The translations under genes and the position numbers were made by a program. Shown here piece by piece: positions 1 through 19,742 of a stretch of 19,742 nucleotides of DNA. The stretch is from the IMG/VR virus record IMGVR_UViG_2681813004_000004; one strand, given 5' to 3'. The notes below the pieces were generated by a model. The model did not search any database, had not been told where the DNA came from, and saw only the letters and a list, made by a program, of their open reading frames with translations. This stretch comes from a virus. Its lineage: Duplodnaviria > Heunggongvirae > Uroviricota > Caudoviricetes. Positions within the stretch are counted from its first letter, which is position 1, and every line of letters starts with the position of its first letter.

Positions 1-2
1 GT

Positions 3-110
3 CTGACACTGGGACTGAATGCGCTGACGCTGACGGATGTTACAAAAAATGCAGCGTATGGCGTTGAGATAGAAAGTCTGGTGCTGGAGATAAATGCACC
101 GGCAGCATAA
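3..110 (+). CDS. 3' end of an upstream CDS that enters the window (C-terminus ...LVLEINAPAA); product not recognised
   Basis: Frame is open from the window edge and ends in tandem stops TAA TAA (108-113); no start codon in window. Confidence 0.4.
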   Translation: MTLGLNALTLTDVTKNAAYGVEIESLVLEINAPAA

Positions 111-111
111 T

Positions 112-153
112 AAAAAAAGAGCCAGCGACTGACCTGAAAGAAGACGCTGGCTA
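112..153 (-). terminator. A-run plus GC hairpin (agccagcg / cgctggct, about 17-nt loop); would read as hairpin followed by U-run on the minus strand
   Basis: Inverted repeat 120-127 / 145-152 with A7 at 112-118. Loop is long for an intrinsic terminator, so function is uncertain. Confidence 0.25.
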
Positions 154-259
154 AAAGGCCTTATATGTTTGTAGAGACTTATTTTTCACAGACAGCAATG
201 ATGCCTGTCAATATATTATCAATATGCGGATTGTTTCAGTTACAGATGCTTTATTAAGG

Positions 260-302
260 AAAAAAACAGCCAGCACTGACTTTCGGTGGAGAGGTGCTGG
301 CT
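260..302 (-). terminator. Second copy of the A-run plus hairpin module (agccagcac / gtgctggct)
   Basis: Inverted repeat 268-276 / 294-302 preceded by A7 at 260-266; same architecture as 112-153 with compensatory stem changes. Confidence 0.25.
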
Positions 303-557
303 CAGAAGGATAGTTGGATTTCACATGATACTTATGCCTGGCGGTATATTTTCTGACAGACAGTGACGGGTGTTGTCAAGATATTGTGTCATTTATAACC
401 TGAATCAGGGGAGGCCGGAATGTTATCTGGCATTTTTAGCAGAGCCTGAATGCCATAATCACGGCTCCCGGAGTTGGCCGTCAGTGGGTGACACTGGTGG
501 TTTTTTTGTTTTTCTTTACTTTCATTTTCTGTCGGCGGTGACGGAGACATACATCAG

Positions 558-764
558 ATGGAAAAAATCACAACGGGTGTGTCATACACCACGTCAGCGG
601 TGGGGACGGGATACTGGTTACTGCAGCTGCTGGACAAAGTCTCTCCGTCCCAGTGGGTGGCAATCGGTGTGCTGGGGAGTCTGCTGTTTGGCCTGCTGAC
701 GTATCTGACTAACCTTTATTTCAAGATTAAAGAAGATAAGCGTAAGGTGGCGCGGGGAGAGTAG
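558..764 (+). CDS. S: Class II holin (pinholin), phage 21 S-like, 68 aa
   Basis: Protein [26 protein letters not shown]...[22 protein letters not shown] closely resembles the S21 pinholin as I recall it (two TMDs, charged C-tail); GGAG upstream of ATG; lies upstream of a SAR endolysin. Confidence 0.88.
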
Positions 765-1019
765 TCGATGAATAAACAATACGAACTGGTTGTAAAATGA
801 ATATTTCTAACTGAAAAAACGTTCCATGAGGTAAGAAAAGGTCACAGGCAATCAATAACAGGACGTGATGAAAGACCCTTGCATTTGTGCGCTTTCTCTT
901 TAGATAGCAGCAGATACTGAAAATCTGAGTTGTCGGGGAGTCAGGGATACAGCTGTGCAAGAGTTGGTCATTGTGATTCCATTGAAATCCTGTATGCCAT
1001 GAAGGGCAGGATTTTATGG

Positions 1020-1334
1020 CTACCTGAGCTTTGGTGATAGTAAGTTGAAAATTCGCATTTTTTGCTGACATGCGTAACGAGAATCCCATAAGCAGGGAGG
1101 ACTTAATTCTTCATTAACCCATGCGTTGATATTATGTTTCAGCCGTTGAAGCATCAGCGGTGTTAATGTTGTGGTAATAATATCCAGCGTTTTATGTGAG
1201 ATCTTACCGTAAGGGTCTGCAAGAATGCTGCTTGTTGCTTCGTTATTATCTGCCATCAGAAGAAGTAACTCTGATTTAACGTTTTCTGTCATTAGTTGTA
1301 AAAATCTTCTGCGCAAACTTTCTTTACTGTTCAT
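1020..1334 (-). CDS. Hypothetical protein (104 aa) encoded antisense within an AT-rich insert between holin and endolysin; candidate moron
   Basis: ATG-initiated minus-strand ORF in a visibly AT-richer segment (about 765-1450); TATAAT-like -10 element on the minus strand near 1408-1416; no recognisable domain. Confidence 0.35.
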   Translation of the reverse strand: MNSKESLRRRFLQLMTENVKSELLLLMADNNEATSSILADPYGKISHKTLDIITTTLTPLMLQRLKHNINAWVNEELSPPCLWDSRYACQQKMRIFNLLSPKLR

Positions 1335-1451
1335 TTATATGGCTTCATTTGTTGTAATCTGCTGCGTCTCAAGGGATATGTTTATGAGAGCGACCATGAG
1401 TGTTGGATTATATACCTAACATATCAAGGGATTAGAAATCGATAAATCCCC

Positions 1452-1985
1452 ATGAACGAAAAAATAAAATACGGCCTGTCGGCTGCCGTTCTGGCGCTGA
1501 TTGGTGCAGGTGCTTCTGCGCCTGAAATCCTCGACCAGTTTCTGGATGAAAAGGAAGGTAACCACACCACGGCATACCGTGATGGTGCGGGGATCTGGAC
1601 CATCTGCCGTGGTGCCATTCTGGTGGATGGTAAGCCTGTTATTCCTGGCATGAAGCTGTCAAAGGAAAAATGCGACCGGGTTAATGCCATCGAACGTGAC
1701 AAGGCGCTGGCATGGGTGGAGAAAAACATCCGGGTGCCGCTGACCGAACCCCAGAAAGCGGGGATCGCGTCATTCTGTCCGTACAACATTGGCCCCGGTA
1801 AGTGCTTCCCGTCGACGTTTTATAAACGAATTAATGCAGGCGATCGAAAAGGTGCCTGTGAGGCGATTCGCTGGTGGATTAAGGACGGTGGCAGAGACTG
1901 CCGTATCCGTTCAAATAATTGCTACGGTCAGGTCTCACGGCGTGACCAGGAGAGCGCGCTGGCGTGCTGGGACATCGACAGATAG
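1452..1985 (+). CDS. R: SAR endolysin (phage lysozyme, GH24 T4-lysozyme-like), 177 aa
   Basis: N-terminal Gly/Ala-rich weakly hydrophobic segment (LSAAVLALIGAGASAP) typical of a signal-anchor-release domain, followed by a lysozyme-like catalytic region; resembles R21 and Stx-phage endolysins from memory. Confidence 0.9.
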   Translation: MNEKIKYGLSAAVLALIGAGASAPEILDQFLDEKEGNHTTAYRDGAGIWTICRGAILVDGKPVIPGMKLSKEKCDRVNAIERDKALAWVEKNIRVPLTEPQKAGIASFCPYNIGPGKCFPSTFYKRINAGDRKGACEAIRWWIKDGGRDCRIRSNNCYGQVSRRDQESALACWDIDR

Positions 1986-2078
1986 CAGAATATTTTCCTG
2001 AAAAATGACGTTGGCCAACGCGGGTGGATAACACGAAATCCTGAAAACTGGTAAAACCTAAGTGAATAAAAGTAAAAA

Positions 2079-2116
2079 CCCCGTTTGTTGGCAGCAAGCG
2101 GGGTTTTGTGTTTTCT
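2079..2116 (+). terminator. Rho-independent terminator between R and Rz
   Basis: ccccgtttg / caagcgggg stem (9 bp, one G-U), 7-nt loop, followed by ttttgtgttttct. Confidence 0.6.
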
Positions 2117-2205
2117 GACCTTGAGTAAGGCAAGGGAGAAATTATGGGTAGGGAGGTACTTTCCCTGTGAGGAAGTATAAAAGATTCTTTCTGAGGTTGT
2201 CCATT

Positions 2206-2319
2206 ATGAAAGGCATTGAAGTGGAGACGCCAGCCAGTCTGGATTTAACAAGAGCGGCAGCTTTTGCCATTCGTATTGTGGCCATTGCTGTTCTGGTCTG
2301 GGCAATCCGTTGGTGGTGA
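2206..2319 (+). CDS. Candidate small hydrophobic peptide (37 aa, MKGIEVETPASLDLTRAAAFAIRIVAIAVLVWAIRWW); stop overlaps the Rz start region
   Basis: ATG preceded by GAGG about 8 nt upstream; C-terminal TM-like segment; TGA at 2317-2319 is immediately followed by the Rz ATG at 2321. Below the ORF-track length cutoff. Confidence 0.25.
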   Translation: MKGIEVETPASLDLTRAAAFAIRIVAIAVLVWAIRWW

Positions 2320-2320
2320 T

Positions 2321-2788
2321 ATGAACCGTGTTCTGTGCGTGGTTATCATTGTCCTGCTGGTGGCCTGTGGTGCGCTTAGTCTGGGGCTGAATCATTACCG
2401 TGATCACGCCATCATCTACAAAGAGCAGCGCGATAAAAAAGCCAGTGAGCTGGAGCTGGCGAACGCGACAATTACTGATATGCAGATACGCCAGCGTGAT
2501 GTCGCTGCACTTGATGCCAGATACTCGAGGGAATTAGCCGATGCGAGAGCTGAAAATGAAACTCTGCGTGCTGATGTTGCCGCTGGTCGTAAGCGCCTGC
2601 GGATCAACGCCACCTGCTCCGGTACCGTGCGTGAAGCCACCGGCACCTCCGGCGTGGATAATGCAACCGGCCCCCGACTGGCAGACACCGCTGAACGGGA
2701 TTATTTCATCCTCAGAGAACGGCTGATGGCAATGCAGAAGCAACTGGAAGGAGCACAGGAATATATCCGTACCCAGTGTATACCGTGA
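2321..2788 (+). CDS. Rz: Rz i-spanin (inner-membrane spanin subunit), 155 aa
   Basis: MNRVLCVVIIVLLVACGALSLGLNHYRD... N-terminal TMD followed by a coiled-coil-like region; strong resemblance to lambda Rz. The ORF-track start at 2264 is a TTG extension not supported by homologs. Confidence 0.88.
   Translation: MNRVLCVVIIVLLVACGALSLGLNHYRDHAIIYKEQRDKKASELELANATITDMQIRQRDVAALDARYSRELADARAENETLRADVAAGRKRLRINATCSGTVREATGTSGVDNATGPRLADTAERDYFILRERLMAMQKQLEGAQEYIRTQCIP
2541..2726 (+). CDS. Rz1: Rz1 o-spanin lipoprotein, embedded in the +1 frame of Rz, 61 aa
   Basis: Entirely inside Rz in a different frame; signal peptide with lipobox LVVSAC then a proline-rich mature region (PPAPVPCVKPPAPPAWIMQPAPDWQTPLNG), as in lambda Rz1. 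Confidence 0.8.
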   Translation: MRELKMKLCVLMLPLVVSACGSTPPAPVPCVKPPAPPAWIMQPAPDWQTPLNGIISSSENG

Positions 2789-3253
2789 TGTTTTGTTATG
2801 AAGGTGTTACTGGTAACGTTAAGGTAATTTAACAAAGAGTCAGTTCCGGACTTTATAGTGTGCTCAGTTCATGGCCAAAAACGATTTCTGTGATAAATAT
2901 TTTGAATATTATTTACAGGTAAATGGAGTGGGGCACATGGATAGAAATATTACAATAGAGAATGAAGTATATGCCCGTATTGTATGGGCAGAGAAGGCAA
3001 AAACACGGTAATTCCGTGTGTTGCCATGATACCTGATTGGCAGAATAGTTGTTTGGTTTTGAGTATATAGTCAGCGTTTTTTGTTCAGTAATTGCTCCCT
3101 CAAAAAATAATAAAATAAGGTGATTATTTTTGTTTATTATTTAGTTTTTTTTGTGTGTTGTTTTATTGTTTTTGCGTGGTTTGTTTTTTATTGTTATTTC
3201 ATTAAGGGAAGGTAAATTCAGGATGGCAGTCTGTAGATAATCGGAGGTCACTT

Positions 3254-3568
3254 ATGCTACATGATCACGTGGCAGAATGTCTGGAGAAAAAAGGACTGTA
3301 CCGGAGAGCAGCTGAACGATGGGCAAAAGTGATGGTACAGCTAAGTGATGACCAGAAAAGAAAAGTAGCGGCACAGAAACGAGCAGAGTGTTTGCGTAAG
3401 GCGCGCCGGACTCCGGTTTCACCGGTGAACCTGACCGAAATAAAACAAGCGGTCAACAGACTACATTCTGAGTTGGGAATGGGATTTGAAGAGCGGCGGG
3501 TATTCCGACGATATAAAGGGACAGGAGAACAGAATACGTCCGGAAACGCGCGGTCAAAAAAATGCTAA
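3254..3568 (+). CDS. PerC-family-like transcriptional regulator (Pch-like), 104 aa; moron
   Basis: GGAGG about 6 nt upstream of ATG; the motif LEKKGLYRRAAERWAKVM matches my recollection of the PerC/Pch family; basic C-terminus; sits between Rz and cos where lambdoid prophages carry morons. Confidence 0.6.
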   Translation: MLHDHVAECLEKKGLYRRAAERWAKVMVQLSDDQKRKVAAQKRAECLRKARRTPVSPVNLTEIKQAVNRLHSELGMGFEERRVFRRYKGTGEQNTSGNARSKKC

Positions 3569-3604
3569 AAAATATCTGAGAGAGTTATTGCCTGTTACCA
3601 TAAG

Positions 3605-3632
3605 AAAAAGCGACTTTAGTGGTCGCTTTTTG
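3605..3632. terminator. Bidirectional rho-independent terminator between convergent genes
   Basis: aaaagcgac / gtcgctttt stem with 7-nt loop, flanked by an A-run upstream and a T-run downstream; lies between the + gene ending 3568 and the - gene ending 3650. Confidence 0.6.
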
Positions 3633-3649
3633 TGTCATATATAAGTCGT

Positions 3650-3874
3650 TTAAGTAAACCTGTCTGAACAGGTGCTCTGGTCGTGTTTGTCTTTGTTGGG
3701 TACAAATTGAGAATATTTTTCATTAATTAATCTTCTTCTGCAGGCTTCAATAACCCACGCTGAAAAATTACCTGAACCTTTCAGGTCAAGAGCGATGTTA
3801 ATTTGTTCAATTATCTGGTTTGGAAATCGGATGTTGCGGGTTGTTGTTCTGCGGGTTCTGTTCTTTGATGACAT
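3650..3874 (-). CDS. Small putative ribbon-helix-helix-like DNA-binding protein (74 aa), possibly DUF3950/YlcI-like
   Basis: ATG-initiated minus-strand ORF; basic N-terminus followed by IRFPNQIIEQINIALDLKG...SAWVIEACRRRL, consistent with a beta-strand plus two helices; adjacent to cos as in several E. coli prophages (from memory). Confidence 0.5.
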   Translation of the reverse strand: MSSKNRTRRTTTRNIRFPNQIIEQINIALDLKGSGNFSAWVIEACRRRLINEKYSQFVPNKDKHDQSTCSDRFT

Positions 3875-4081
3875 AATGTTGCCCCGTATTCAGTGTTGCT
3901 GATTTGTATTATCTGAAGTTGCTTTTACGCTAATTTGATGCAGATCAATTAATACGATACCTGCGTAATAATTGATTATTTCTCGTGGTTTGATGGCGTA
4001 CACACATGTCGTGATAAACCTCATGTAGATGATAATTATTATCATTTTCGTGGGTCCTTTCCGGCGATCCGACAGGTTACG

Positions 4082-4093
4082 GGGCGGCGACCT
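4082..4093 (+). other. cosN cohesive-end sequence GGGCGGCGACCT, copy 1, preceded by a cosQ-like segment
   Basis: 12-nt sequence identical to the lambda cohesive end as I recall it, preceded by ...tcctttccggcgatccgacaggttacg (lambda right-end / cosQ-like). Confidence 0.7.
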
Positions 4094-4187
4094 CGCGGGT
4101 TTTCGCTATTTATGAAAATTTTCCGGGGTTATTGCTCAATAATTATTATCATTTTTCGGGTCCTTTCCGGCGATCCGACAGGTTACG

Positions 4188-4199
4188 GGGCGGCGACCT
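4188..4199 (+). other. cosN cohesive-end sequence GGGCGGCGACCT, copy 2 (the copy adjacent to cosB)
   Basis: Same 12-mer and same flanks as copy 1; followed directly by the R3-I1-R2-R1-like array. Confidence 0.75.
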
Positions 4200-4235
4200 C
4201 GCGGGTTTTCGCTATTTATGAAAATTTTCCGGGAT

Positions 4236-4344
4236 CCATGTCCGGTTTCTCTTCAAGTTAACTATATGAAAAATATAAAAACAGGTCTTCTGTGAACCGG
4301 ACATGAACAAAAAACAGACATGTAAACCGGACATGACCGGTTTT
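4236..4344 (+). promoter_or_regulatory. cosB-like terminase small-subunit binding region: three R elements sharing the core aaccggacatg (one inverted) and an A/T-rich IHF-like site
   Basis: catgtccggtt at 4238-4248 (inverted), aaccggacatg at 4295-4305 and 4325-4335, A/T-rich segment 4256-4285 between the first two; immediately upstream of the Nu1-like gene. Confidence 0.6.
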
Positions 4345-4382
4345 GTTGTGATTGTGAGGTGAGAGTTTTTGCGAGGTGAGGA

Positions 4383-4892
4383 GTGGCTACGCAGACTGAA
4401 GTTGCCAGGCATTTAAGTCTGACCGATCGCCAGCTTCGCAGATTGCAGAAATTGCCGGGTGCCCCGATATCGAATAAGCGAGGGCAACTGGATCTGGATG
4501 CCTGGCGCGATTTTTACATATCGTATCTGAGGAGAAGTAAAAACGATGTGCCTGATGGCGATAGCGAAGACGACTATGAGGAGAAATTGCTTATTGCCAG
4601 ATGGGAACTGACAGCAGAACAGGCTGTTACACAGCAGTTAAAAAATGAGGTGTCAAAAGGAAAACTTATTGACACCGGGTTCTGTATTTTTGCCCTCAGT
4701 AAGCTGGCAATGGCGTTATCCAGTACGCTTGATTCCATCCCTTTATCCATGCAACGACAGTTTCCTGATTTAACACCGCGCCATCTTGACCATCTGAAAA
4801 CCCTTATTGCGAAGGGGGCAAATCAGTGTGCGCGGGCGGGGGATAAATTACCGGATTTACTCGATGAATATATCAGAGCAACAACTGAATAA
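4383..4892 (+). CDS. nu1: Terminase small subunit (Nu1-like), GTG start, 169 aa
   Basis: C-terminal half (FCIFALSKLAMALSSTLDSIPLSMQRQFPDLTPRHLDHL...LLDEYI) resembles lambda Nu1; N-terminal region is HTH-like; GAGGTGAGGA precedes the GTG; directly downstream of cosB. Confidence 0.8.
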   Translation: MATQTEVARHLSLTDRQLRRLQKLPGAPISNKRGQLDLDAWRDFYISYLRRSKNDVPDGDSEDDYEEKLLIARWELTAEQAVTQQLKNEVSKGKLIDTGFCIFALSKLAMALSSTLDSIPLSMQRQFPDLTPRHLDHLKTLIAKGANQCARAGDKLPDLLDEYIRATTE

Positions 4893-6792
4893 TATGATGA
4901 GTGCTGTCACAACAGCATTACAGCCCCTGATAAGGGCATTGCCGGTGACGCCAGTTGAATGGGCTGATCAAAATTATTATCTGCCTAAAGAATCTTCATA
5001 TGGTGAGGGAGAATGGAAAACGCTGCCATTCCAGATCGCCATTATGAACTGTATGGGTAACGACCAGGTTCGCACGGTTAACCTGATTAAATCTGCCCGT
5101 GTTGGCTATACAAAGATGTTGCTGGGGGTGGTCGGGTATTTTATTGAGCATAAATCCCGAAACAGTCTGCTTTTTCAGCCCACGGATTCTGCCGCTGAAG
5201 ATTTTATGAAGTCTCACGTGGAGGCGACGATTCGGAACGTGCCATGCCTGAAAGACCTTTCCCCATGGCTGGGTCGTAAACATCGTGACAATACTCTCAC
5301 GCTGAAACGCTTTTCATCGGGCGTCGGTTTCTGGTGCCTGGGCGGCGCTGCCGCCAAAAACTACCGTGAAAAATCCGTGGACGTGGTCTGCTATGACGAA
5401 CTTTCCTCGTTCGAGCCGGATGTCGAAAAAGAGGGCTCGCCAACCCTGCTGGGGGATAAGCGTATTGAGGGGGCGGTGTGGCCAAAATCCATTCGCGGCT
5501 CGACGCCTAAAATCAAAGGCACCTGCCAGATCGAAAAAGCCGCTAACGAGTCGGCGCATTTTATGCGTTTTTATGTGCCCTGCCCGCACTGTGGGGAGGC
5601 GCAGTATCTGAAATTTGGCGATGAGTCCACGCCTTTTGGGCTTAAATGGGAGAAGGACAGCCCCGAAAGTGTTTTCTACCTCTGTGAACATCATGGCTGC
5701 GTGATCCATCAGTCTGAACTGGACCAGAGCAACGGGCGGTGGATCTGTGAAAACACGGGCATGTGGACCCGTGACGGTCTGACGTTTTTCAGCGCCCGGG
5801 GTGATGAAATTCCGCCGCCGCGCTCCATCACGTTCCATATCTGGACGGCGTACAGTCCGTTTACCACCTGGGTACAGATAGTCTATGACTGGCTGGATGC
5901 ACTGAAAGATCCCAACGGCCTGAAAACCTTTGTGAACACCACGCTGGGCGAGACCTGGGAAGAAGCCGTGGGCGAAAAACTCGATCACCAGGTACTGATG
6001 GATAAGGTCGTGCATTACACGGCGGCGGTACCTGCCCGGGTGGTTTATCTGACGGCGGGCATTGACTCGCAGCGAAACCGTTTTGAGATGTATGTCTGGG
6101 GATGGGCACCGGGAGAGGAAGCTTTTCTGGTGGATAAAATCATCATTATGGGCCGTCCCGATGAGGAAGAGACGCTGTTACGTGTGGATGCGGCGATCAA
6201 CAAAAAATACTGCCATGCAGACGGAACCGAAATGACCATTTCCCGTGTCTGCTGGGACACCGGGGGGATCGATGGTGAAATTGTCTATCAGAGGTCAAAA
6301 AAACACGGTGTTTTCCGGGTGCTGCCGGTAAAAGGCGCATCTGTCTATGGCAAGCCGGTGATCACCATGCCGAAAACCCGCAATCAGCGGGGCGTGTATC
6401 TGTGTGAAGTGGGGACGGACACCGCAAAAGAAATTCTCTATGCCCGTATGAAAGCCGATCCCACTCCTGCGGATGAAGCCACGTCGTATGCCATCCGTTT
6501 TCCTGATGATCCGGAGATTTTTTCGCAGACAGAGGCGCAGCAACTGGTGGCGGAAGAGCTTGTGGAGAAGTGGGAAAAAGGAAAGATGCGTCTGCTGTGG
6601 GATAACAAAAAGCGGCGTAACGAAGCGCTGGACTGCCTGGTGTATGCCTACGCGGCATTACGTGTGTCCGTGCAACGCTGGCAGCTTGATCTGGCTGTAC
6701 TGGCAAAATCCCGGGAAGAAGAGACGACCCGGCCAACCCTGAAAGAACTGGCAGCGAAGCTGTCCGGAGGAGTGAATGGTTACAGTCGCTGA
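4864..6792 (+). CDS. A: Terminase large subunit (gpA-like), 642 aa
   Basis: MNISEQQLNN...VEWADQNYYLPKES...KNYREKSVDVV.YDEL...FVNTTLGETWEE...WDNKKRRNEALDC is near-collinear with lambda gpA. The ORF-track start at 4807 is a non-ATG 5' extension; ATG at 4864 matches the lambda start. Confidence 0.95.
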   Translation: MNISEQQLNNMMSAVTTALQPLIRALPVTPVEWADQNYYLPKESSYGEGEWKTLPFQIAIMNCMGNDQVRTVNLIKSARVGYTKMLLGVVGYFIEHKSRNSLLFQPTDSAAEDFMKSHVEATIRNVPCLKDLSPWLGRKHRDNTLTLKRFSSGVGFWCLGGAAAKNYREKSVDVVCYDELSSFEPDVEKEGSPTLLGDKRIEGAVWPKSIRGSTPKIKGTCQIEKAANESAHFMRFYVPCPHCGEAQYLKFGDESTPFGLKWEKDSPESVFYLCEHHGCVIHQSELDQSNGRWICENTGMWTRDGLTFFSARGDEIPPPRSITFHIWTAYSPFTTWVQIVYDWLDALKDPNGLKTFVNTTLGETWEEAVGEKLDHQVLMDKVVHYTAAVPARVVYLTAGIDSQRNRFEMYVWGWAPGEEAFLVDKIIIMGRPDEEETLLRVDAAINKKYCHADGTEMTISRVCWDTGGIDGEIVYQRSKKHGVFRVLPVKGASVYGKPVITMPKTRNQRGVYLCEVGTDTAKEILYARMKADPTPADEATSYAIRFPDDPEIFSQTEAQQLVAEELVEKWEKGKMRLLWDNKKRRNEALDCLVYAYAALRVSVQRWQLDLAVLAKSREEETTRPTLKELAAKLSGGVNGYSR

Positions 6793-6982
6793 ACTACAGG
6801 CGCTACGTCAGGCGCGCCTTGATTTATTAACCGGTAAACGGGTGGTGTCTGTCCAGAAAGATGGTCGCAGAATTGAATATACGGCGGCTTCTCTGGATGA
6901 GCTTAACCGGGCGATCAATGATGCGGAGTCGGTACTGGGGACAACCCGACGTCGCCGTCGTCCGCTGGGAGTGAGGTTATGA
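6776..6982 (+). CDS. W: Head-tail joining protein gpW-like, 68 aa
   Basis: ...LLTGKRVVSVQKDGRRIEYTAASLDEL... resembles lambda gpW; overlaps the A stop and the B start (ATGA). Confidence 0.85.
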   Translation: MVTVAELQALRQARLDLLTGKRVVSVQKDGRRIEYTAASLDELNRAINDAESVLGTTRRRRRPLGVRL

Positions 6983-8571
6983 AACGAACGCCTGTCCTGA
7001 TTGATGTGAACGGCGTTCCGCTTCGTGAGAGTCTCAGCTACAACGGGGGCGGCGCAGGATTTGGCGGGCAAATGGCGGAGTGGTTGCCACCGGCGCAGAG
7101 TGCCGATGCAGCCCTGCTGCCTGCGTTGCGTCTGGGGAATGCCCGGGCAGATGATCTGGTGCGCAATAACGGGATAGCGGCCAATGCGGTGGCCCTGCAT
7201 AAGGATCATATTGTCGGGCATATGTTTCTGATCAGCTACCGTCCGAACTGGCGCTGGCTGGGGATGCGGGAGACTGCGGCAAAAAGTTTTGTCGATGAGG
7301 TGGAGGCGGCCTGGTCGGAATACGCCGAAGGGATGTCTGGCGAGATCGACGTGGAAGAGAAACGCACGTTTACGGAATTTATTCGTGAAGGTGTGGGCGT
7401 TCATGCGTTTAACGGCGAAATCTTTGTGCAGCCGGTCTGGGATACGGAGAGCACGCAACTGTTTCGTACGCGTTTTAAAGCCGTGAGTCCGAAACGGGTG
7501 GACACGCCAGGACACGGTATGGGGAACCGTTTTCTGCGGGCCGGTGTGGAGGTCGATCGATATGGTCGTGCCGTTGCGTACCATATCTGTGAGGATGATT
7601 TTCCATTCTCTGGGAGTGGACGATGGGAACGGATCCCGCGTGAACTTCCCACCGGGCGTCCGGCCATGCTGCATATTTTCGAGCCGGTGGAGGACGGGCA
7701 GACCCGTGGGGCCAATCAGTTTTACAGCGTAATGGAACGGCTGAAGATGCTCGATTCCCTGCAGGCAACACAGCTTCAGTCGGCCATAGTGAAGGCGATG
7801 TATGCAGCGACGATTGAAAGTGACCTTGATACCGAAAAGGCCTTTGAATATATCGCCGGTGCGCCGCAGGGGCAGAAGGATAATCCGCTTATTAATATTC
7901 TGGATAAGTTCTCCACCTGGTATGACACGAATAGCGTGACGCTGGGCGGTGTCAAAATTCCGCACCTTTTCCCCGGTGATGATCTGAAACTTCAGACCGC
8001 GCAGGATTCAGACAATGGATTTTCGGCGCTTGAACAGGCGCTGCTGCGGTATATCGCCGCCGGTCTTGGCGTTTCCTACGAACAGTTGTCCCGTGATTAC
8101 TCGAAGGTCAGTTATTCAAGTGCCCGCGCATCCGCCAATGAGTCGTGGCGCTATTTTATGGGGCGGCGAAAATTTATTGCGTCCCGGCTGGCCACGCAGA
8201 TGTTTTCCTGCTGGCTGGAAGAGGCACTTCTTCGGGGGATTATTCGTCCGCCACGGGCACGTTTTGATTTTTATCAGGCGCGATCAGCCTGGTCACGGGC
8301 TGAGTGGATTGGAGCCGGAAGAATGGCCATTGACGGGCTCAAGGAGGTTCAGGAATCAGTGATGCGCATTGAGGCCGGACTGAGCACGTATGAGAAAGAG
8401 CTGGCGCTGATGGGCGAGGATTATCAGGACATTTTCCGCCAGCAGGTCAGGGAATCTGCAGAGCGGGAAAAAGCCGGACTCTCACGTCCGGTGTGGATAG
8501 CGCAGGCGTATCAGCAGCAGATAGCGGAGAGTCGCAGGCCGGAAGAGGAGACAACACCACGTGAGACGTAA
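6979..8571 (+). CDS. B: Portal protein gpB-like, 530 aa
   Basis: Size and position match lambda gpB (head order A-W-B-C-D-E). Confidence 0.93.
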   Translation: MKRTPVLIDVNGVPLRESLSYNGGGAGFGGQMAEWLPPAQSADAALLPALRLGNARADDLVRNNGIAANAVALHKDHIVGHMFLISYRPNWRWLGMRETAAKSFVDEVEAAWSEYAEGMSGEIDVEEKRTFTEFIREGVGVHAFNGEIFVQPVWDTESTQLFRTRFKAVSPKRVDTPGHGMGNRFLRAGVEVDRYGRAVAYHICEDDFPFSGSGRWERIPRELPTGRPAMLHIFEPVEDGQTRGANQFYSVMERLKMLDSLQATQLQSAIVKAMYAATIESDLDTEKAFEYIAGAPQGQKDNPLINILDKFSTWYDTNSVTLGGVKIPHLFPGDDLKLQTAQDSDNGFSALEQALLRYIAAGLGVSYEQLSRDYSKVSYSSARASANESWRYFMGRRKFIASRLATQMFSCWLEEALLRGIIRPPRARFDFYQARSAWSRAEWIGAGRMAIDGLKEVQESVMRIEAGLSTYEKELALMGEDYQDIFRQQVRESAEREKAGLSRPVWIAQAYQQQIAESRRPEEETTPRET

Positions 8572-10066
8572 TCTTTCACACATTATTGCCGCAGCATTCA
8601 ATGAACCGCTGCTTCTGGAGCCCGCCTATGCGCGGGTTTTCTTTTGCGCGCTCGGGCGCGAGATGGGGGCAGCAAGTCTTTCGGTACCACAACAGCAGGT
8701 ACAGCTTGATGCTCCCGGAATGCTGGCTGAAACGGACGAGTACATGGCCGGAGGTAAACGACCGGCCCGTGTTTACCGGGTGGTGAACGGTATTGCGGTA
8801 CTGCCGGTGACCGGCACGCTGGTGCACCGGCTGGGGGGGATGCGGCCATTTTCCGGAATGACTGGCTATGACGGCATTGTCGCCTGTCTTCAGCAGGCAA
8901 TGGCAGATAGCCAGGTGCGGGGCATACTGCTGGACATTGACAGTCCGGGCGGGCAGGCCGCTGGCGCGTTTGACTGCGCTGACATGATTTACCGCCTCCG
9001 TCAGCAGAAGCCGGTCTGGGCACTGTGCAATGACACGGCCTGTTCTGCAGCCATGCTGCTGGCGTCGGCCTGCTCCCGACGGCTGGTTACCCAGACATCC
9101 CGTATCGGCTCCATTGGCGTGATGATGAGCCATGTCAGCTATGCCGGTCATCTGGCGCAGGCCGGTGTGGATATCACGCTGATTTACTCAGGGGCGCACA
9201 AGGTGGATGGCAATCAGTTTGAAGCCTTACCGGCAGAGGTTCGCCAGGACATGCAGCAGCGCATTGATGCGGCGCGCCGGATGTTTGCCGAAAAAGTGGC
9301 GATGTTTACCGGTCTGTCTGTTGATGCCGTCACGGGAACAGAGGCCGCCGTTTTTGAAGGTCAGTCCGGCATTGAGGCCGGGCTGGCGGATGAATTAGTC
9401 AATGTGTCGGATGCCATCAGTGTGATGGCCACGGCGCTGAACAGTAATGTCAGAGGAGGCACTATGCCGCAATTAACTGCAACGGAAGCCGCCGCGCAGG
9501 AGAACCAGCGAGTGATGGGGATCCTGACATGCCAGGAAGCGAAAGGACGTGAACAGCTTGCCACGATGCTGGCAGGACAACAGGGCATGAGCGTTGCACA
9601 GGCCCGGGCGATTCTGGCCGCGGCGGCACCGCAGCAGCCGGTGGCATCCACGCAGAGTGAAGCCGATCGCATTATGGCGTGTGAAGAAGCGAACGGTCGT
9701 GAACAACTGGCGGCAACGCTGGCGGCGATGCCGGAGATGACGGTGGAAAAAGCCCGCCCGATCCTGGCTGCTTCACCGCAGGCGGATGCCGGACCCTCAC
9801 TCCGTGATCAGATCATGGCACTGGATGAGGCAAAAGGGGCTGAGGCGCAGGCTGAACAGCTGGCTGCCTGCCCGGGAATGACTGTGGAGAGCGCCCGGGC
9901 TGTGCTGGCTGCGGGATCAGGTAAGGCAGAACCGGTCTCTGCATCCACAACCGCCCTGTTTGAACGCATCATGGCGAACCATTCACCGGCAGCGGTACAG
10001 GGTGGCGTGCCACAGACGTCAGCAGACGGTGATGCGGACGTGAAAATGCTCATGGCCATGCCATGA
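8561..10066 (+). CDS. C: Prohead protease / minor capsid protein gpC-like (S49 ClpP-like peptidase) with C-terminal scaffold-like repeat region, 501 aa, GTG start
   Basis: N-terminus ...NEPLLLEPAYARVFF...GIAVLPVTGTLV...KPVWAL...RLVTQTSRIGSIGVMM...ITLIYSG.HKVDGN resembles lambda gpC; C-terminal part contains the IMGIL.C.EA.GREQLA motif three times. Confidence 0.9.
   Translation: MRRNLSHIIAAAFNEPLLLEPAYARVFFCALGREMGAASLSVPQQQVQLDAPGMLAETDEYMAGGKRPARVYRVVNGIAVLPVTGTLVHRLGGMRPFSGMTGYDGIVACLQQAMADSQVRGILLDIDSPGGQAAGAFDCADMIYRLRQQKPVWALCNDTACSAAMLLASACSRRLVTQTSRIGSIGVMMSHVSYAGHLAQAGVDITLIYSGAHKVDGNQFEALPAEVRQDMQQRIDAARRMFAEKVAMFTGLSVDAVTGTEAAVFEGQSGIEAGLADELVNVSDAISVMATALNSNVRGGTMPQLTATEAAAQENQRVMGILTCQEAKGREQLATMLAGQQGMSVAQARAILAAAAPQQPVASTQSEADRIMACEEANGREQLAATLAAMPEMTVEKARPILAASPQADAGPSLRDQIMALDEAKGAEAQAEQLAACPGMTVESARAVLAAGSGKAEPVSASTTALFERIMANHSPAAVQGGVPQTSADGDADVKMLMAMP
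9464..10066 (+). CDS. nu3: Candidate nested in-frame scaffolding protein (Nu3-like) inside the 3' part of C, 200 aa
   Basis: Internal ATG at 9464 preceded by AGGAGG (9454-9459); in lambda, Nu3 is an in-frame internal start within C (established knowledge). Confidence 0.4.
   Translation: MPQLTATEAAAQENQRVMGILTCQEAKGREQLATMLAGQQGMSVAQARAILAAAAPQQPVASTQSEADRIMACEEANGREQLAATLAAMPEMTVEKARPILAASPQADAGPSLRDQIMALDEAKGAEAQAEQLAACPGMTVESARAVLAAGSGKAEPVSASTTALFERIMANHSPAAVQGGVPQTSADGDADVKMLMAMP
9509..9995 (+). repeat. Three and a half diverged tandem repeats (about 45 aa / 140 bp each) within the scaffold region of C/Nu3
   Basis: Protein repeats: RVMGILTCQEAKGREQLATMLAGQQGMSVAQARAILAAAAP / RIMACEEANGREQLAATLAAMPEMTVEKARPILAASP / QIMALDEAKGAEAQAEQLAACPGMTVESARAVLAAGS / RIMANHSPAA. 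Confidence 0.8.
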
Positions 10067-10102
10067 AGTCAGTGCTGATCATCAACAGGAGGTTTTTACA
10101 AT

Positions 10103-10450
10103 ATGGTAACGAAAACCATCACTGAACAGCGTGCGGAAGTACGTATTTTTGCCGGTAATGATCCGGCTCATACCGCCACAGGCAGCAGCGGGATTTCCTC
10201 GGCAACACCGGCACTGACGCCCCTGATGCTGGATGAAGCCAGCGGGAAACTGGTGGTCTGGGACGGACAGAAAGCCGGTAGTGCAGTTGGCATACTGGTA
10301 CTGCCGCTTGAAGGCACAGAGACGGTACTGACCTATTACAAGTCGGGGACCTTTGCGACGGAGGCAATCCGCTGGCCTGAAAGTGTGGATGAACACAAAA
10401 AGGCAAATGCCTTTGCCGGCAGTGCCCTGAGTCACGCGGCGCTGCCGTAA
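10103..10450 (+). CDS. D: Head decoration protein gpD-like, 115 aa
   Basis: ...NDPAHTATGSSG...TPLMLDEASGKLVVWDG...VGILVLPLEG...YYKSGTF...AFAGSAL resembles lambda gpD; AGGAGG upstream. Confidence 0.92.
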   Translation: MVTKTITEQRAEVRIFAGNDPAHTATGSSGISSATPALTPLMLDEASGKLVVWDGQKAGSAVGILVLPLEGTETVLTYYKSGTFATEAIRWPESVDEHKKANAFAGSALSHAALP

Positions 10451-10507
10451 CACGTTATCAGGCCACCGCGGTGGCCTGACTGATTTCTGAATGAAAGGAA
10501 CTGATTT

Positions 10508-11536: not shown

Positions 11537-11544
11537 TCCGTGAG

Positions 11545-11573
11545 CGGGGGCGAAATGCCCCCGTGTCTTTTTT
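11545..11573 (+). terminator. Rho-independent terminator immediately after the major capsid gene
   Basis: cgggggc / gcccccg stem with gaaat loop followed by tgtctttttt. Confidence 0.6.
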
Positions 11574-11587
11574 CACAGGGGGCTGAT

Positions 11588-11962
11588 ATGGCAACGAAAG
11601 AGCAAAATCTGAAACGGCTTGATGAACTGGCCCTGATTCTGGGGCGTGAGCCGGATATATCCGGGAGTGCCGCAGAGATAGCGCAGCGGGTGGCGGAATG
11701 GGAAGAGGAAATACAGTCATCCGGCGATGATGTACAGGTTATGAATATGGATATCCGGGAGAGGGAAACCGCGGCTCATGATGTTCGTGAGGATACATCC
11801 GGTGCGTTAACGCGCATCAGAGTTCTGACCTGCCTCCATCTCTGTGGCATTGATGGTGAAACAGGGGAATCCGTTGAGATTGCGGATGTTGGTCGGGTGA
11901 TTCTGATTATGTCCTCAGATGCAAAAACACACGTTGATGGCGGAATGGCTGTTTATGCGTGA
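11588..11962 (+). CDS. FI: DNA packaging / head assembly accessory protein gpFI-like, 124 aa
   Basis: Position between E and FII; acidic protein. ATG at 11588 chosen because the ORF-track start at 11540 runs through the terminator hairpin. Confidence 0.65.
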   Translation: MATKEQNLKRLDELALILGREPDISGSAAEIAQRVAEWEEEIQSSGDDVQVMNMDIRERETAAHDVREDTSGALTRIRVLTCLHLCGIDGETGESVEIADVGRVILIMSSDAKTHVDGGMAVYA

Positions 11963-12308: not shown

Positions 12309-12323
12309 ACGCAGGGTGAAATT

Positions 12324-12857: not shown

Positions 12858-13249
12858 AACACACTGACATTCGTGCCGCAGTGCTGGATGCACTCGAGCA
12901 GCATGAACACGGGGCGACGCTGTTTGATGGTCGCCCCGTTGTTTTTGACGAAGAGGATTTTCCCGCGGTCGCGGTTTATCTGACGGATGCAGAGTATACC
13001 GGTGAAGAGCTGGATGCAGATACCTGGCGGGCCACACTGCATATTGAGGTGTTTTTACCGGCACAGGTACCGGATTCGGAGCTGGATTCGTGGATGGAAA
13101 GCCGGATTTATCCGGCGATGACTGCGATCCCGGCACTGGCAGACCTGATTACCACGATGGTTACGCAGGGCTATGAGTATCGTCGTGATGACGATATGGC
13201 GTTATGGAGTTCTGCAGATCTGACTTATTCCATTACATACGAGATGTGA
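12854..13249 (+). CDS. U: Tail terminator protein gpU-like, 131 aa
   Basis: [54 protein letters not shown]...[25 protein letters not shown]...[14 protein letters not shown] is near-identical in pattern to lambda gpU. Confidence 0.92.
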
Positions 13250-13256
13250 GGACGAT

Positions 13257-17454: not shown

Positions 17455-17780
17455 AAACATTTCGCTGGAAAGTGAAGCCGGATATGGAGGTGAACTCGCA
17501 GCCATCGGTGCGTGAAGTGCGTTTTGGTGACGGGTATTCGCAGCGTATGGCGGCGGGGCTGAATGCTGACCTGAAAACATACCGTGTGACGCTTTCCGTG
17601 ACCCGGGAGGAGGCCCGACATCTGGAGGCATTCCTGGCAGAGCACGGTGGCTGGAAGGCGTTTCTGTGGACACCGCCTTATGCCTGGCGGCAGATAAAGG
17701 TGACCTGTGCCGCCTGGTCATCACGGGTTCGCATGCTGCGGGTTGAATTCAGCGCGGAGTTTAAGCAGGTGGTGAACTGA
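17451..17780 (+). CDS. M: Minor tail protein gpM-like, 109 aa
   Basis: MKTFRWKVKP...VRFGDGYSQR...LKTYRVTLSV...HGGWKAFLWTPPYAWRQIKVTCAAWSSRV.MLRVEFSAEFKQVVN closely matches lambda gpM. Confidence 0.93.
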   Translation: MKTFRWKVKPDMEVNSQPSVREVRFGDGYSQRMAAGLNADLKTYRVTLSVTREEARHLEAFLAEHGGWKAFLWTPPYAWRQIKVTCAAWSSRVRMLRVEFSAEFKQVVN

Positions 17781-18478
17781 TGCAGGATATTCACGAAGAA
17801 AGTCTGAACGAGTCGGTTAAATCAGAGCAGTCACCGCGGGTGGTACTCTGGGAAATCGACCTGACGGTACAGGGTGGTGAGCGGTATTTTTTCTGCAATG
17901 AGCTGAATGAAAAAGGGGAGGCGGTCACCTGGCAGGGGCGGCAATATCAGGCATACCCGATTGACGGCAGTGGCTTTGAGATGAACGGGAAGGGCAGCAG
18001 TGCCCGCCCGTCGCTGACGGTGTCGAATCTGTTCGGTCTGGTCACCGGAATGGCGGAGGACCTGCAGAGCCTGGTGGGGGCCACGGTGGTCCGCCGCCGG
18101 GTGTATGCCCGTTTTCTGGATGCGGTGAATTTTGTGGCGGGCAATCCGGAAGCGGACCCGGAGCAGGAGCTGAGCGACCGCTGGGTGGTGGAGCAGATGT
18201 CAGAGCTGACGGCCATGACAGCCTCGTTTGTGCTGGCAACACCGACGGAGACGGACGGAGCGCTGTTTCCCGGTCGCATCATGCTGGCGAACACCTGTAT
18301 GTGGGATTACCGGGGAGATGAATGCGGGTATAACGGTCCTGCGGTGGCGGATGAGTTCGATAAACCCACCACCGATATCCGTAAGGACAGATGCAGCAAG
18401 TGCATGCGCGGGTGTGAGATGCGCGGCATGGTGGCTAATTTTGGCGGTTTCCTTTCCATTAACAAACTTTCGCAGTAA
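17780..18478 (+). CDS. L: Minor tail protein gpL-like, copy 1, 232 aa
   Basis: Position after M; size equals lambda gpL; C-terminal Cys-rich region (CMWDYRGDECGYNG...CSKCMRGC). Confidence 0.9.
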   Translation: MQDIHEESLNESVKSEQSPRVVLWEIDLTVQGGERYFFCNELNEKGEAVTWQGRQYQAYPIDGSGFEMNGKGSSARPSLTVSNLFGLVTGMAEDLQSLVGATVVRRRVYARFLDAVNFVAGNPEADPEQELSDRWVVEQMSELTAMTASFVLATPTETDGALFPGRIMLANTCMWDYRGDECGYNGPAVADEFDKPTTDIRKDRCSKCMRGCEMRGMVANFGGFLSINKLSQ

Positions 18479-18483
18479 ATCCA

Positions 18484-18840
18484 ATGACACAGACAGAATC
18501 AGCGATTCTGGCGCATGCCCGGCGGTGTGTGCCTGCGGAGTCGTGCGGCTTCGTGGTGAGAACGCCGGAGGGGGAGCGGTATATCCCTTGTGTGAATATC
18601 TCTGCAGAGCCGGAGGCGTATTTTCGTATTGCACCGGAAGACTGGCTGCGGGCAGAGATGCAGGGGGAGATTGTGGCACTGGTCCACAGTCATCCCGGTG
18701 GTCTGCCCTGGCTGAGCGAGGCCGACCGGCGGCTGCAGATAAAAAGTGCACTGTCCTGGTGGCTGGTCTGCCGGGGGGAAATTCATAAATTCCGCTGTGT
18801 GCCACATCTGACAGGACGGCGCTTTGAGAGCAGGTGGTGA
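18484..18840 (+). pseudogene. K: Truncated gpK-like ORF (K', 118 aa) retaining the N-terminal JAB/MPN-type motif; truncated at the duplication junction
   Basis: MTQTESAILAHARRCVPAESCGFVV...IVALVHSHPGGLPWLSEADRR...HLTGRRFE then SRW-stop, read from M-end sequence in another frame; full-length lambda gpK is about 199 aa. Confidence 0.7.
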
Positions 18841-18844
18841 ACTG

Positions 18845-19543
18845 ATGCAGGATATTCACGAAGAAAGTCTGAACGAGTCGGTTAAATCAGAGCAGTCACC
18901 GCGGGTGGTACTCTGGGAAATCGACCTGACGGTACAGGGTGGTGAGCGGTATTTTTTCTGCAATGAGCTGAATGAAAAAGGGGAGGCGGTCACCTGGCAG
19001 GGGCGGCAATATCAGGCATACCCGATTGACGGCAGTGGCTTTGAGATGAACGGGAAGGGCAGCAGTGCCCGCCCGTCGCTGACGGTGTCGAATCTGTTCG
19101 GTCTGGTCACCGGAATGGCGGAGGACCTGCAGAGCCTGGTGGGGGCCACGGTGGTCCGCCGCCGGGTGTATGCCCGTTTTCTGGATGCGGTGAATTTTGT
19201 GGCGGGCAATCCGGAAGCGGACCCGGAGCAGGAGCTGAGCGACCGCTGGGTGGTGGAGCAGATGTCAGAGCTGACGGCCATGACAGCCTCGTTTGTGCTG
19301 GCAACACCGACGGAGACGGACGGAGCGCTGTTTCCCGGTCGCATCATGCTGGCGAACACCTGTATGTGGGATTACCGGGGAGATGAATGCGGGTATAACG
19401 GTCCTGCGGTGGCGGATGAGTTCGATAAACCCACCACCGATATCCGTAAGGACAGATGCAGCAAGTGCATGCGCGGGTGTGAGATGCGCGGCATGGTGGC
19501 TAATTTTGGCGGTTTCCTTTCCATTAACAAACTTTCGCAGTAA
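18845..19543 (+). CDS. L: Minor tail protein gpL-like, copy 2, identical to copy 1
   Basis: Identical 232-aa translation; ATG at 18845 (the ORF-track start at 18824 is a TTG extension created by the junction). Confidence 0.85.
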   Translation: MQDIHEESLNESVKSEQSPRVVLWEIDLTVQGGERYFFCNELNEKGEAVTWQGRQYQAYPIDGSGFEMNGKGSSARPSLTVSNLFGLVTGMAEDLQSLVGATVVRRRVYARFLDAVNFVAGNPEADPEQELSDRWVVEQMSELTAMTASFVLATPTETDGALFPGRIMLANTCMWDYRGDECGYNGPAVADEFDKPTTDIRKDRCSKCMRGCEMRGMVANFGGFLSINKLSQ

Positions 19544-19548
19544 ATCCA

Positions 19549-19742
19549 ATGACACAGACAGAATCAGCGATTCTGGCGCATGCCCGGCGGTGTGTGCCTG
19601 CGGAGTCGTGCGGCTTCGTGGTGAGAACGCCGGAGGGGGAGCGGTATATCCCTTGTGTGAATATCTCTGCAGAGCCGGAGGCGTATTTTCGTATTGCACC
19701 GGAAGACTGGCTGCGGGCAGAGATGCAGGGGGAGATTGTGGC
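19549..19742 (+). CDS. K: gpK-like tail protein, copy 2, 5' portion only (continues beyond the window)
   Basis: Identical to the first 64 codons of K'; frame is open to the window edge. Confidence 0.8.
   Translation, partial: MTQTESAILAHARRCVPAESCGFVVRTPEGERYIPCVNISAEPEAYFRIAPEDWLRAEMQGEIV

What the first reader, a model, noticed from the sequence alone, without database searches (positions are those of the whole stretch)
4031..4344. Tandemly duplicated cosQ-cosN segment gives two cohesive-end sites 106 bp apart, upstream of a single cosB
Two copies of a lambda-type cosQ plus cosN (GGGCGGCGACCT) lie at 4082-4093 and 4188-4199. The roughly 80-bp core is identical while the unit edges differ (cgtgggtcc versus cgggtcc at the 5' edge; 3' edges diverge into different flanks). 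Only copy 2 keeps lambda-like spacing to the R-site array. The edge divergence argues against a simple assembly artefact. Two nick sites in one packaging signal could give alternative genome ends, or one may be a decoy.
Basis: partly seen in the sequence, partly recalled or inferred. Interest (0 to 1): 0.6.

Follow-up and report, generated by a model that had tools for sequence, protein, structure and literature searches.

The report
Duplicated phage cos site, probably misassembly
The sequence really does contain two copies of a lambda-type DNA-packaging cut site 106 bp apart, but the extra copy exists only in this one draft-assembly contig and is more likely a repeat-joining error than biology; if real, it would erase itself the first time the phage packages its DNA.

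Summary
A 76-nt identical core (cosQ GGGTCCT, cosN GGGCGGCGACCT, I2) occurs at 4052-4127 and 4158-4233. A single cosB and the terS/terL genes lie downstream. R3 sits at the canonical bp 50-60 from copy 2 and at bp 156 from copy 1.

The functional reading is not supported. The window is one whole draft contig (AOTC01000212.1, GCA_001447405.1). Deleting 4128-4233 restores 100% identity across cos to a prophage found with a single cos in about 710 complete E. coli genomes. A viable phage with 99.4% identical TerS also has one cos.

The junction, with its orphan 10-nt linker TTATTGCTCA, is absent from every collection searched. The duplicated unit is exactly the core shared by co-resident lambdoid prophages, and its edge variants match other prophage lineages.

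The contig also has a second private tandem repeat (17764-18677 = 18829-19742). It has a blunt junction, runs to the contig end, and the junction falls where many E. coli draft contigs break.

Best explanation: assembly or scaffolding artefact (about 0.62). Rival: a real, recent, neutral duplication (about 0.32). Terminase would then start at copy 2 and stop at copy 1, so virions would carry one cos. Interest is low.

The parts
4032..4048 (+). AT box ATAATTATTATCATTTT upstream of cosQ, copy 1 (native left flank)
   Evidence: 17-nt repeat family D2. Contiguous with the lambda-like upstream sequence, as in single-copy relatives.
4052..4058 (+). cosQ copy 1 (GGGTCCT), 30 nt upstream of cosN copy 1
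   Evidence: Offset -30. Identical to lambda at the same position. A 7-bp cosQ is required for termination (PMC4669245).
4082..4093 (+). cosN copy 1: 12-nt cohesive-end sequence GGGCGGCGACCT, with no cosB at the working distance
   Evidence: Bp 48-66 downstream is linker and AT box, with no R site.
4094..4127 (+). I2-like segment of copy 1 (bp 13-46 after the cohesive-end start), identical to copy 2 and to lambda up to bp 45
   Evidence: I2 is needed for efficient termination (PMC4669245, citing Cue & Feiss 2001).
4128..4138 (+). Junction linker G+TTATTGCTCA, an orphan sequence with no source in the window or in any collection
4139..4157 (+). AT box plus left edge of copy 2 (ATAATTATTATCATTTTTC), the variant typical of a different lambdoid lineage
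   Evidence: Identical to strain 144 (L002) and to 203 complete genomes.
4158..4164 (+). cosQ copy 2
4188..4199 (+). cosN copy 2, the copy correctly spaced from cosB and therefore the expected initiation site
   Evidence: Same cosN-to-R3 junction as single-cos relatives and viable phage PhiR12_2.
4200..4236 (+). I2 segment of copy 2, running into cosB
4237..4247 (-). cosB R3 (AACCGGACATG on the - strand) at bp 50-60 from cosN copy 2
   Evidence: Lambda R3 spans bp 50-65 (PMC9026076). Conserved in PhiR12_2 despite flanking divergence.
4248..4294 (.). A+T-rich (72%) spacer between R3 and R2 at the position of IHF site I1; only weak IHF-consensus matches (2 mismatches)
4295..4305 (+). cosB R2 (AACCGGACATG), opposite in orientation to R3
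   Evidence: Orientation rule from PMC4669245 and PMC9026076.
4325..4342 (.). cosB R1 region: overlapping R-like sites at 4325-4335 (+, exact) and 4332-4342 (-, 1 mismatch)
4383..4892 (+). terS (small terminase, Nu1 family, 169 aa)
   Evidence: PF07471. Annotated in relatives. 99.4% identical to viable phages PhiR12_1 to PhiR12_5.
4864..6792 (+). terL (large terminase, gpA ATPase plus nuclease, 642 aa)
   Evidence: PF05876 and PF20454. Gene calls.
17764..19742 (+). Second private tandem repeat: unit 17764-18828 (1065 bp), with its first 914 bp repeated at 18829-19742 up to the contig end. Bears on the reliability of the contig.

Best explanation
The underlying feature is an ordinary single lambda-type cos site (cosQ-cosN-I2-cosB with R3-I1-R2-R1, followed by terS and terL) of a very common PerC-carrying lambdoid prophage of E. 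coli. The second cosQ-cosN-I2 copy is most likely not in the organism. The window is one complete contig of a draft assembly. The roughly 96-nt cos core is a repeat shared by the several lambdoid prophages a typical E. coli carries. Two assembly pieces that both ended in that repeat, one of which had wandered a few bases onto another prophage's branch, appear to have been joined head to tail instead of merged, with a short 10-nt fill between them. Shown: the insert is private, clean and repeat-shaped, and the contig has a second error-like tandem repeat. Inferred: the actual joining step and the software responsible.
For: (1) The window equals the entire 19,742-bp contig AOTC01000212.1 of GCA_001447405.1, an assembly of at least 212 contigs. 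(2) With 4128-4233 and the terminal repeat removed, the contig aligns collinearly end to end with the RM14723 prophage, and 3584-4666 is 100% identical. Window 1-4060 is 100% identical to 7 complete genomes. (3) About 710 complete genomes carry this cos over at least 80% of the query. The 40 best matches span 445-446 bp of record for the 551-bp query, which means one copy. No record has the junction as one collinear piece. Neither half-junction exists in 5,426 complete E. coli genomes, GTDB species representatives, IMG/VR or JGI metagenomes. All 15 related cos loci read had one cosN: 13, plus PhiR12_2 and lambda. (4) The identical core ends exactly where lambdoid lineages diverge. Copy 2's left edge equals the strain 144 type, and copy 1's extra G equals the FRIK1989 type. 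The core occurs a median of 2 and up to 9 times per genome. (5) There is a second private tandem repeat, 17764-18677 = 18829-19742, at 100% identity, with a blunt junction and no microhomology. It runs to the contig end and is absent from all complete genomes. Its junction follows codon 115 of tail gene K. Among the listed cluster members, contigs carrying partial K products that end at residues 113-117 include 14 ending at residue 114, about 28 of the roughly 100 contigs listed. (6) The viable phage PhiR12_2, with 99.4% identical TerS, has a single cos.
Against: The 10-nt linker TTATTGCTCA has no source in the window or in any database. A pure de Bruijn assembler cannot invent it, so reads, a gap-filler or a chimeric read must have supplied it. 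I could not see the reads, the assembler or the other contigs of this assembly. I therefore could not show that a co-resident prophage with the copy 2 edge exists in this strain. The contig is otherwise of high quality, with all genes intact and no frameshifts. The break-hot-spot argument applies directly only to the second repeat and reaches the cos duplication by association.
Confidence: 0.62

Rival explanations
1. The duplication is real: a recent, private, selectively neutral 106-bp tandem insertion in the resident prophage. It could have arisen by a template switch or illegitimate recombination involving the cos of a co-resident lambdoid prophage, with 10 nt of filler. It is tolerated because a prophage replicates passively. 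After induction, TerS would bind R3/R2/R1 and TerL would nick cosN copy 2, the only copy at the working distance. The translocating motor would reach cosQ1-cosN1-I2 of the next genome unit first and terminate there. Virion DNA would then run from 4188 to 4081/4093 and omit the 106-bp interval, and after cyclisation it would regenerate exactly the single-cos reference sequence. The duplication would be lost on the first lytic passage. At most it would lower processivity, because the end made at cosN1 is 106 bp further from cosB.
For: The contig sequence is clean and the genes are intact. The orphan linker is easier to explain as filler DNA than as assembler output. Both copies contain every element named as necessary for termination, namely cosQ, cosN and I2, while only copy 2 has cosB at bp 50. 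The rules come from PMC4669245: initiation needs cosN plus cosB; termination needs cosQ, cosN and I2 and is independent of cosB specificity. PMC9026076 adds that even a 3-bp change in cosN-cosB spacing is severe. Removing 106 bp gives the reference cos exactly.
Against: It is absent from every related genome and phage examined. A second independent private tandem duplication in the same 20 kb, ending at the contig end with its junction on an assembly break hot spot, is improbable for biology. The unit coincides with the inter-prophage repeat rather than with arbitrary endpoints.
Confidence: 0.32
2. The double cos is an evolved, functional arrangement. The upstream cosB-less copy would serve as a dedicated terminator, as a decoy against terminase-hijacking elements such as PICIs, or as a means of producing two classes of genome ends.
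For: Only the anatomy supports this: two intact cosQ-cosN-I2 units, with a 106-bp spacing close to 10 helical turns.
Against: There is no conservation at all. It is a singleton among about 710 genomes with the same cos and among 2.9 million viral contigs. The 11 IMG/VR loci with two GGGCGGCGACCT 52-142 bp apart are all unrelated GC-rich coding repeats. Viable phages with this TerS use one cos. By the known packaging rules the arrangement cannot be transmitted through virions.
Confidence: 0.03

Closest known systems
Bacteriophage lambda cos (cosQ-cosN-I2-cosB) and the lambda-like cos phages (lambda, 21, phi80, N15, Gifsy-1)
   Same: The 12-nt cohesive-end sequence, the cosQ heptamer at -30 and I2 up to bp 45 are identical to lambda. 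cosB has three R sites, with R2 inverted relative to R3 and R1 and an A+T-rich spacer at the I1 position. R3 begins at bp 50. Nu1-family terS and gpA-family terL follow directly.
   Different: The R-site sequence (AACCGGACATG) and the 169-aa TerS differ from lambda (CGTTTCC-type R3, 181-aa Nu1, PMC9026076). This is therefore a different packaging specificity. From memory it resembles phage 21, but I did not compare it with a phage 21 sequence.
Engineered tandem-cos and dilysogen constructs of the Feiss laboratory (cosQ-N-B -> cosQ-N-B')
   Same: If the duplication is real, the arrangement is a natural miniature of those constructs. A cosB-less cos can terminate but not initiate, and termination is indifferent to cosB (PMC4669245, Tables 5-6 and refs 43-46, 61).
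   Different: Those constructs place the two cos sites kilobases or a genome length apart. Here they are 106 bp apart, so the interval could never be packaged on its own. No experiment exists for this spacing.
False tandem duplications at repeat joins in draft assemblies (overlapping contig ends joined or gap-filled instead of merged)
   Same: The duplicated unit equals a multi-copy repeat, its edges carry paralogue variants, and the junction is private. A second tandem repeat sits at the contig end on a common contig break point.
   Different: The responsible software step is unknown and the 10-nt linker is unexplained. That such artefacts are a known class rests on my general knowledge, not on a paper read here.
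PICI cos sites (cosQ-cosN like the helper phage, different R3, Rpp redirection)
   Same: A cosQ-cosN unit without the phage's own cosB, like copy 1 (PMC9026076).
   Different: No rpp-like gene and no alternative R3-like element follow copy 1; what follows is the linker and then copy 2. I considered this and rejected it.

Membership tests
lambda-type cos packaging signal | 12-nt 5' cohesive-end sequence closely matching lambda's (GGGCGGCGACCT) with flanking symmetric CG | tested here: met
   Exact in both copies, and identical to lambda, O103 12009, RM14723, PhiR12_2, strain 144 and FRIK1989.
lambda-type cos packaging signal | Conserved 7-bp cosQ about 30 bp upstream of cosN | tested here: met
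   GGGTCCT at -30 of both copies, identical to lambda in the alignment. The 7-bp conserved cosQ is stated in PMC4669245. The exact heptamer assignment is from my memory of Wieczorek & Feiss 2001.
lambda-type cos packaging signal | cosB: R3-I1-R2-R1, R2 inverted, R3 at about bp 50-65 from the cohesive-end start | tested here: met
   Met for copy 2: R3 at bp 50-60 (-), R2 at 4295-4305 (+), R1 at 4332-4342 (-, 1 mismatch). Not met for copy 1: bp 48-66 is linker and AT box, and R3 lies at bp 156. The IHF site is only a weak match.
lambda-type cos packaging signal | Immediately followed by Nu1-family terS and gpA-family terL | tested here: met
   PF07471, PF05876 and PF20454.
lambda-type cos packaging signal | Terminase actually nicks the site, so virion DNA ends map there | not testable with these tools
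   Needs virion DNA end sequencing.
phage 21 packaging specificity | TerS recognition helix and R-site sequence matching phage 21 | not tested
   I retrieved no phage 21 sequence. The nearest characterised relatives found are phages PhiR12_1 to PhiR12_5 (99.4% TerS). The resemblance to phage 21 is from memory only.
genuine (biological) tandem duplication | Junction present in the organism's DNA (reads or PCR) | not testable with these tools
   No read access.
genuine (biological) tandem duplication | Inherited: the same junction occurs in related isolates or phages | tested here: not met
   Absent from 5,426 complete E. coli genomes, 50,697 phage records, GTDB representatives, IMG/VR and JGI metagenomes. 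The K' fusion ORF of the second repeat is on 1 contig in the whole gene collection.
assembly or scaffolding false duplication | Duplicated unit coincides with a multi-copy repeat and carries paralogue variants at its edges | tested here: met
   The core equals the segment shared by lambdoid lineages. Edge variants match strain 144 and FRIK1989 types. The cos core occurs a median of 2 and up to 9 times per genome.
assembly or scaffolding false duplication | Other error-like structures in the same draft contig, at contig ends or graph break points | tested here: met
   A 914-nt perfect repeat runs to the contig end, with a blunt junction after K codon 115, where many draft contigs break.
assembly or scaffolding false duplication | No read support for the junction | not testable with these tools
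   No read access. The orphan 10-nt linker remains unexplained.

The most novel reading that the evidence does not exclude
The duplication is real in this strain and both cut sites are used. Terminase initiates at cosN copy 2, which is next to cosB, and terminates at the cosB-less copy 1, which is met first on the concatemer. Each packaging cycle would then discard a 106-bp cos-to-cos fragment, and virions would carry a single cos. That would make this a natural, prophage-only, self-erasing separation of the initiation and termination signals of a lambda-like phage.
Probability: 0.25. Interest if true: 0.4.

Novelty: not a real feature. Interest (0 to 1): 0.12.

Why it matters
If it is an artefact, its value is practical. 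Lambda-type cos cores and tail-gene mosaics are multi-copy repeats in E. coli, and draft contigs can carry false tandem copies there, so cos-based end prediction or 'novel packaging signal' calls from drafts need read support. If it is real, it would be a natural counterpart of the engineered tandem-cos constructs used to separate initiation from termination in lambda packaging. It would also give a clean in vivo test of whether a cosB-less cosQ-cosN-I2 unit 106 bp upstream captures termination. It would still be a singleton with no sign of selection.

Tried and rejected
- **Templated linker.** I searched the window for GGTTATTGCTCAAT with up to 2 mismatches. Only the junction itself matched.
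- **Linker as a natural flank of another prophage or PICI.** Both half-junctions were searched in complete E. coli genomes, GTDB representatives, IMG/VR and JGI metagenomes. Nothing was found.
- **Double cos elsewhere.** Three IMG/VR scans looked for two GGGCGGCGACCT 52-142 bp apart. They gave 11 loci, all unrelated GC-rich coding repeats.
- **Tracing through the junction-spanning 49-aa ORF (4112-4261).** It is not on record. The K' fusion ORF look-up did succeed and identified the source contig.
- **Identifying the assembly project in the literature.** Searches for AOTC00000000, AOTC01 and GCA_001447405 returned only unrelated plant accessions or nothing.
- **Primary papers.** Cue & Feiss 1993 and Wieczorek & Feiss 2001 are not held, so their conclusions are cited through PMC4669245.
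- **Sequencing adaptor or linker origin of TTATTGCTCA.** I compared it from memory with common Illumina, 454, Ion Torrent and PacBio adaptors and saw no match. This was not a tool test.
- **PICI-type cos for copy 1.** Rejected, because no Rpp-like gene or alternative R3 follows it.
- **IHF site.** I found no match to the consensus with 1 mismatch or fewer between R3 and R2, and only 2-mismatch matches.

Full report
**Observation.**
- GGGCGGCGACCT occurs exactly twice, at 4082-4093 and 4188-4199 on the + strand. Only 0.12 matches are expected by chance, and no shuffle gave two.
- A 76-nt, 100% identical direct repeat lies at 4052-4127 and 4158-4233, with 106-nt spacing. It is preceded by a repeated 17-nt AT box at 4032-4048 and 4139-4155. 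Overall, 4032-4127 aligns with 4139-4233 at 96.9%.
- The left edges differ: cattttCGTgggtcc versus catttttCgggtcc.
- The copies are joined by ...ttttccggg-G-TTATTGCTCA-ataattattatc....

**Anatomy.** Each copy contains the following elements:
- the heptamer GGGTCCT at -30, which is cosQ;
- the lambda cohesive-end 12-mer;
- the segment up to bp 46 that corresponds to I2. All of this is identical to lambda apart from one base upstream.

Downstream of copy 2 only are three AACCGGACATG sites:
- 4237-4247 (-), which is R3;
- 4295-4305 (+), which is R2;
- 4332-4342 (-, 1 mismatch), which is R1, overlapped by an exact + copy at 4325-4335.

This matches the published plan R3-I1-R2-R1 with R2 inverted (PMC4669245, PMC9026076).
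- R3 starts at bp 50 from cosN copy 2, the canonical position (lambda R3 spans bp 50-65, PMC9026076). From copy 1 it starts at bp 156.
- The R3-R2 spacer is 72% A+T but has only weak IHF-consensus matches.
- terS (4383-4892, PF07471) and terL (4864-6792, PF05876 and PF20454) follow.
- Upstream lie lysis genes, a PerC-family gene and a DUF3950 gene.

This is a standard lambda-like late region. The packaging specificity is not lambda's, because the R sites and the 169-aa TerS differ. It resembles phage 21 from memory, which I did not test.

**Comparison with relatives.**
- Window 1-4060 is 100% identical to prophages in 7 complete E. coli genomes.
- About 710 complete genomes carry this cos region over at least 80% of the query, and the best reach 99.4% identity. 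The 40 best matches span 445-446 bp of record for the 551-bp query, which means one copy.
- O103:H2 12009 and RM14723 read as copy 1's left edge joined directly to copy 2's right flank.
- With 4128-4233 and the terminal repeat deleted, the contig aligns collinearly end to end with RM14723, and 3584-4666 is 100% identical.
- Viable isolated phages PhiR12_1 to PhiR12_5 have a 99.4% identical TerS. PhiR12_2 has a single cos with the same cosN-to-R3 junction and conserved R sites.
- All 13 loci fetched by that point have one cosN, and so do PhiR12_2 and lambda, read later.

**The junction is private.**
- No complete E. coli genome holds it as a collinear piece.
- Neither half-junction exists in the complete genomes.
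- Exact-pattern scans of GTDB representatives, IMG/VR and JGI metagenomes found nothing.
- IMG/VR contigs with two GGGCGGCGACCT 52-142 bp apart are all unrelated GC-rich coding repeats.

**The edges come from other prophage lineages.** Copy 2's left edge (ATAATTATTATCATTTTTCGGGTCC) is exactly the variant of another lambdoid lineage, found in strain 144 and 203 genomes. The extra G after copy 1 (CCGGGG) is the FRIK1989-type variant. The identical core ends precisely where lineages diverge. E. coli genomes carry this core a median of twice and up to nine times. The duplicated unit is therefore an assembly-graph repeat with paralogue variants at its edges. For that reason edge divergence does not argue against an artefact.

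**Source and a second anomaly.** An exact look-up of a fusion ORF identified the source as NCBI GCA_001447405.1, contig AOTC01000212.1, length 19,742. The window is the whole draft contig.

The contig holds a second tandem repeat: 17764-18677 equals 18829-19742 at 100% identity, with a period of 1065 bp.
- It runs to the contig end.
- Its junction is blunt (…CGCTTTGAG|AGCAGGTGG…) with no microhomology.
- The junction is absent from all complete genomes, and its fusion ORF is on one contig in the whole gene collection.
- The junction follows codon 115 of tail gene K. The fusion ORF's 90% cluster is full of 'partial' K products from E. coli draft contigs. Fourteen contigs end at residue 114 and others at 113-117, about 28 of the roughly 100 contigs listed.

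The junction therefore sits on a common contig break point, which is a repeat boundary between co-resident prophages. That is expected for a mis-join and is an unlikely coincidence for a biological duplication.

**Best explanation (about 0.62).** The extra cos copy is a false tandem duplication made when two assembly pieces that overlapped in the inter-prophage cos repeat were joined rather than merged. The main weakness is the orphan linker TTATTGCTCA. It has no source in the window or in any database, so something in the reads or in a gap-filling step must have supplied it. Its length of exactly 10 nt is suggestive of a filled minimal gap, but that is speculation.

**Rival (about 0.32).** The duplication is real, recent and neutral in the prophage. 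The mechanism then follows from established rules:
- Initiation needs cosN plus a correctly spaced cosB, and even 3-bp spacing changes are severe (PMC9026076).
- Termination needs cosQ, cosN and I2 and ignores cosB specificity (PMC4669245).

Terminase would cut copy 2 to start and would cut copy 1 of the next concatemer unit to finish. Virions would lack the 106-bp interval, and cyclisation would regenerate exactly the reference single cos. The duplication could persist only in the prophage state.

An evolved 'decoy' or 'two-ends' function (about 0.03) is contradicted by the complete lack of recurrence.

**Verdict.** The underlying cos is an already known kind. The duplication is most likely not a real feature. 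Interest is low. The decisive test is read mapping or PCR across 3950-4450 in the source strain.

Noticed in passing
window 17764-19742: A second private tandem repeat. The unit 17764-18828 (the end of tail gene M, all of L, and the first 115 codons of K) is followed by a perfect copy of its first 914 nt, which runs to the contig end. The junction is blunt and has no microhomology. It creates a truncated K' ORF (18484-18840) and a second L gene.
   Followed up: yes
window 1-19742: The window is an entire draft contig (AOTC01000212.1 of GCA_001447405.1), so both window ends are contig ends. The left end lies in the prophage-borne SASA-family esterase region, which is another multi-copy prophage gene.
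   Followed up: partly
window 3254-3568 (+): A PerC-family transcriptional activator gene (PF06069, E = 3.8e-44) sits as a cargo gene between the lysis cassette and cos. This resembles the Pch/PerC homologues of EHEC and EPEC prophages. Identical copies occur in prophages of dog, pig and human isolates.
   Followed up: partly
window 4900-4951 and 11000-17500: Differences from the RM14723 prophage are strongly clustered. There are 22 substitutions within 52 nt at the terS/terL overlap and dense blocks in the tail genes, while 1-4666 is nearly identical. This is typical lambdoid mosaicism. The best complete-genome match to 4234-18828 is only 98.5%.
   Followed up: partly
window 4325-4342: The R1 region of cosB is a near-palindrome made of two overlapping R-like sites in opposite orientation (AACCGGACATG on + and AACCGGTCATG on -). 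It is conserved in PhiR12_2. Which of the two is the functional R1 is unclear.
   Followed up: no
window 4128-4142: The junction linker forms a small palindrome with the start of copy 2 (TTATTG-CT-CAATAA), and it resembles a degenerate copy of the adjacent TTATTATCA. Its origin is unexplained.
   Followed up: partly
L027 (PhiR12_2) 1480-1530: In the viable phage PhiR12_2 the sequence upstream of the AT box and cosQ is unrelated to the lambda-like ylcI/bor-side flank. Lineages therefore recombine right at the AT box, which looks like a mosaic breakpoint immediately left of cosQ.
   Followed up: no
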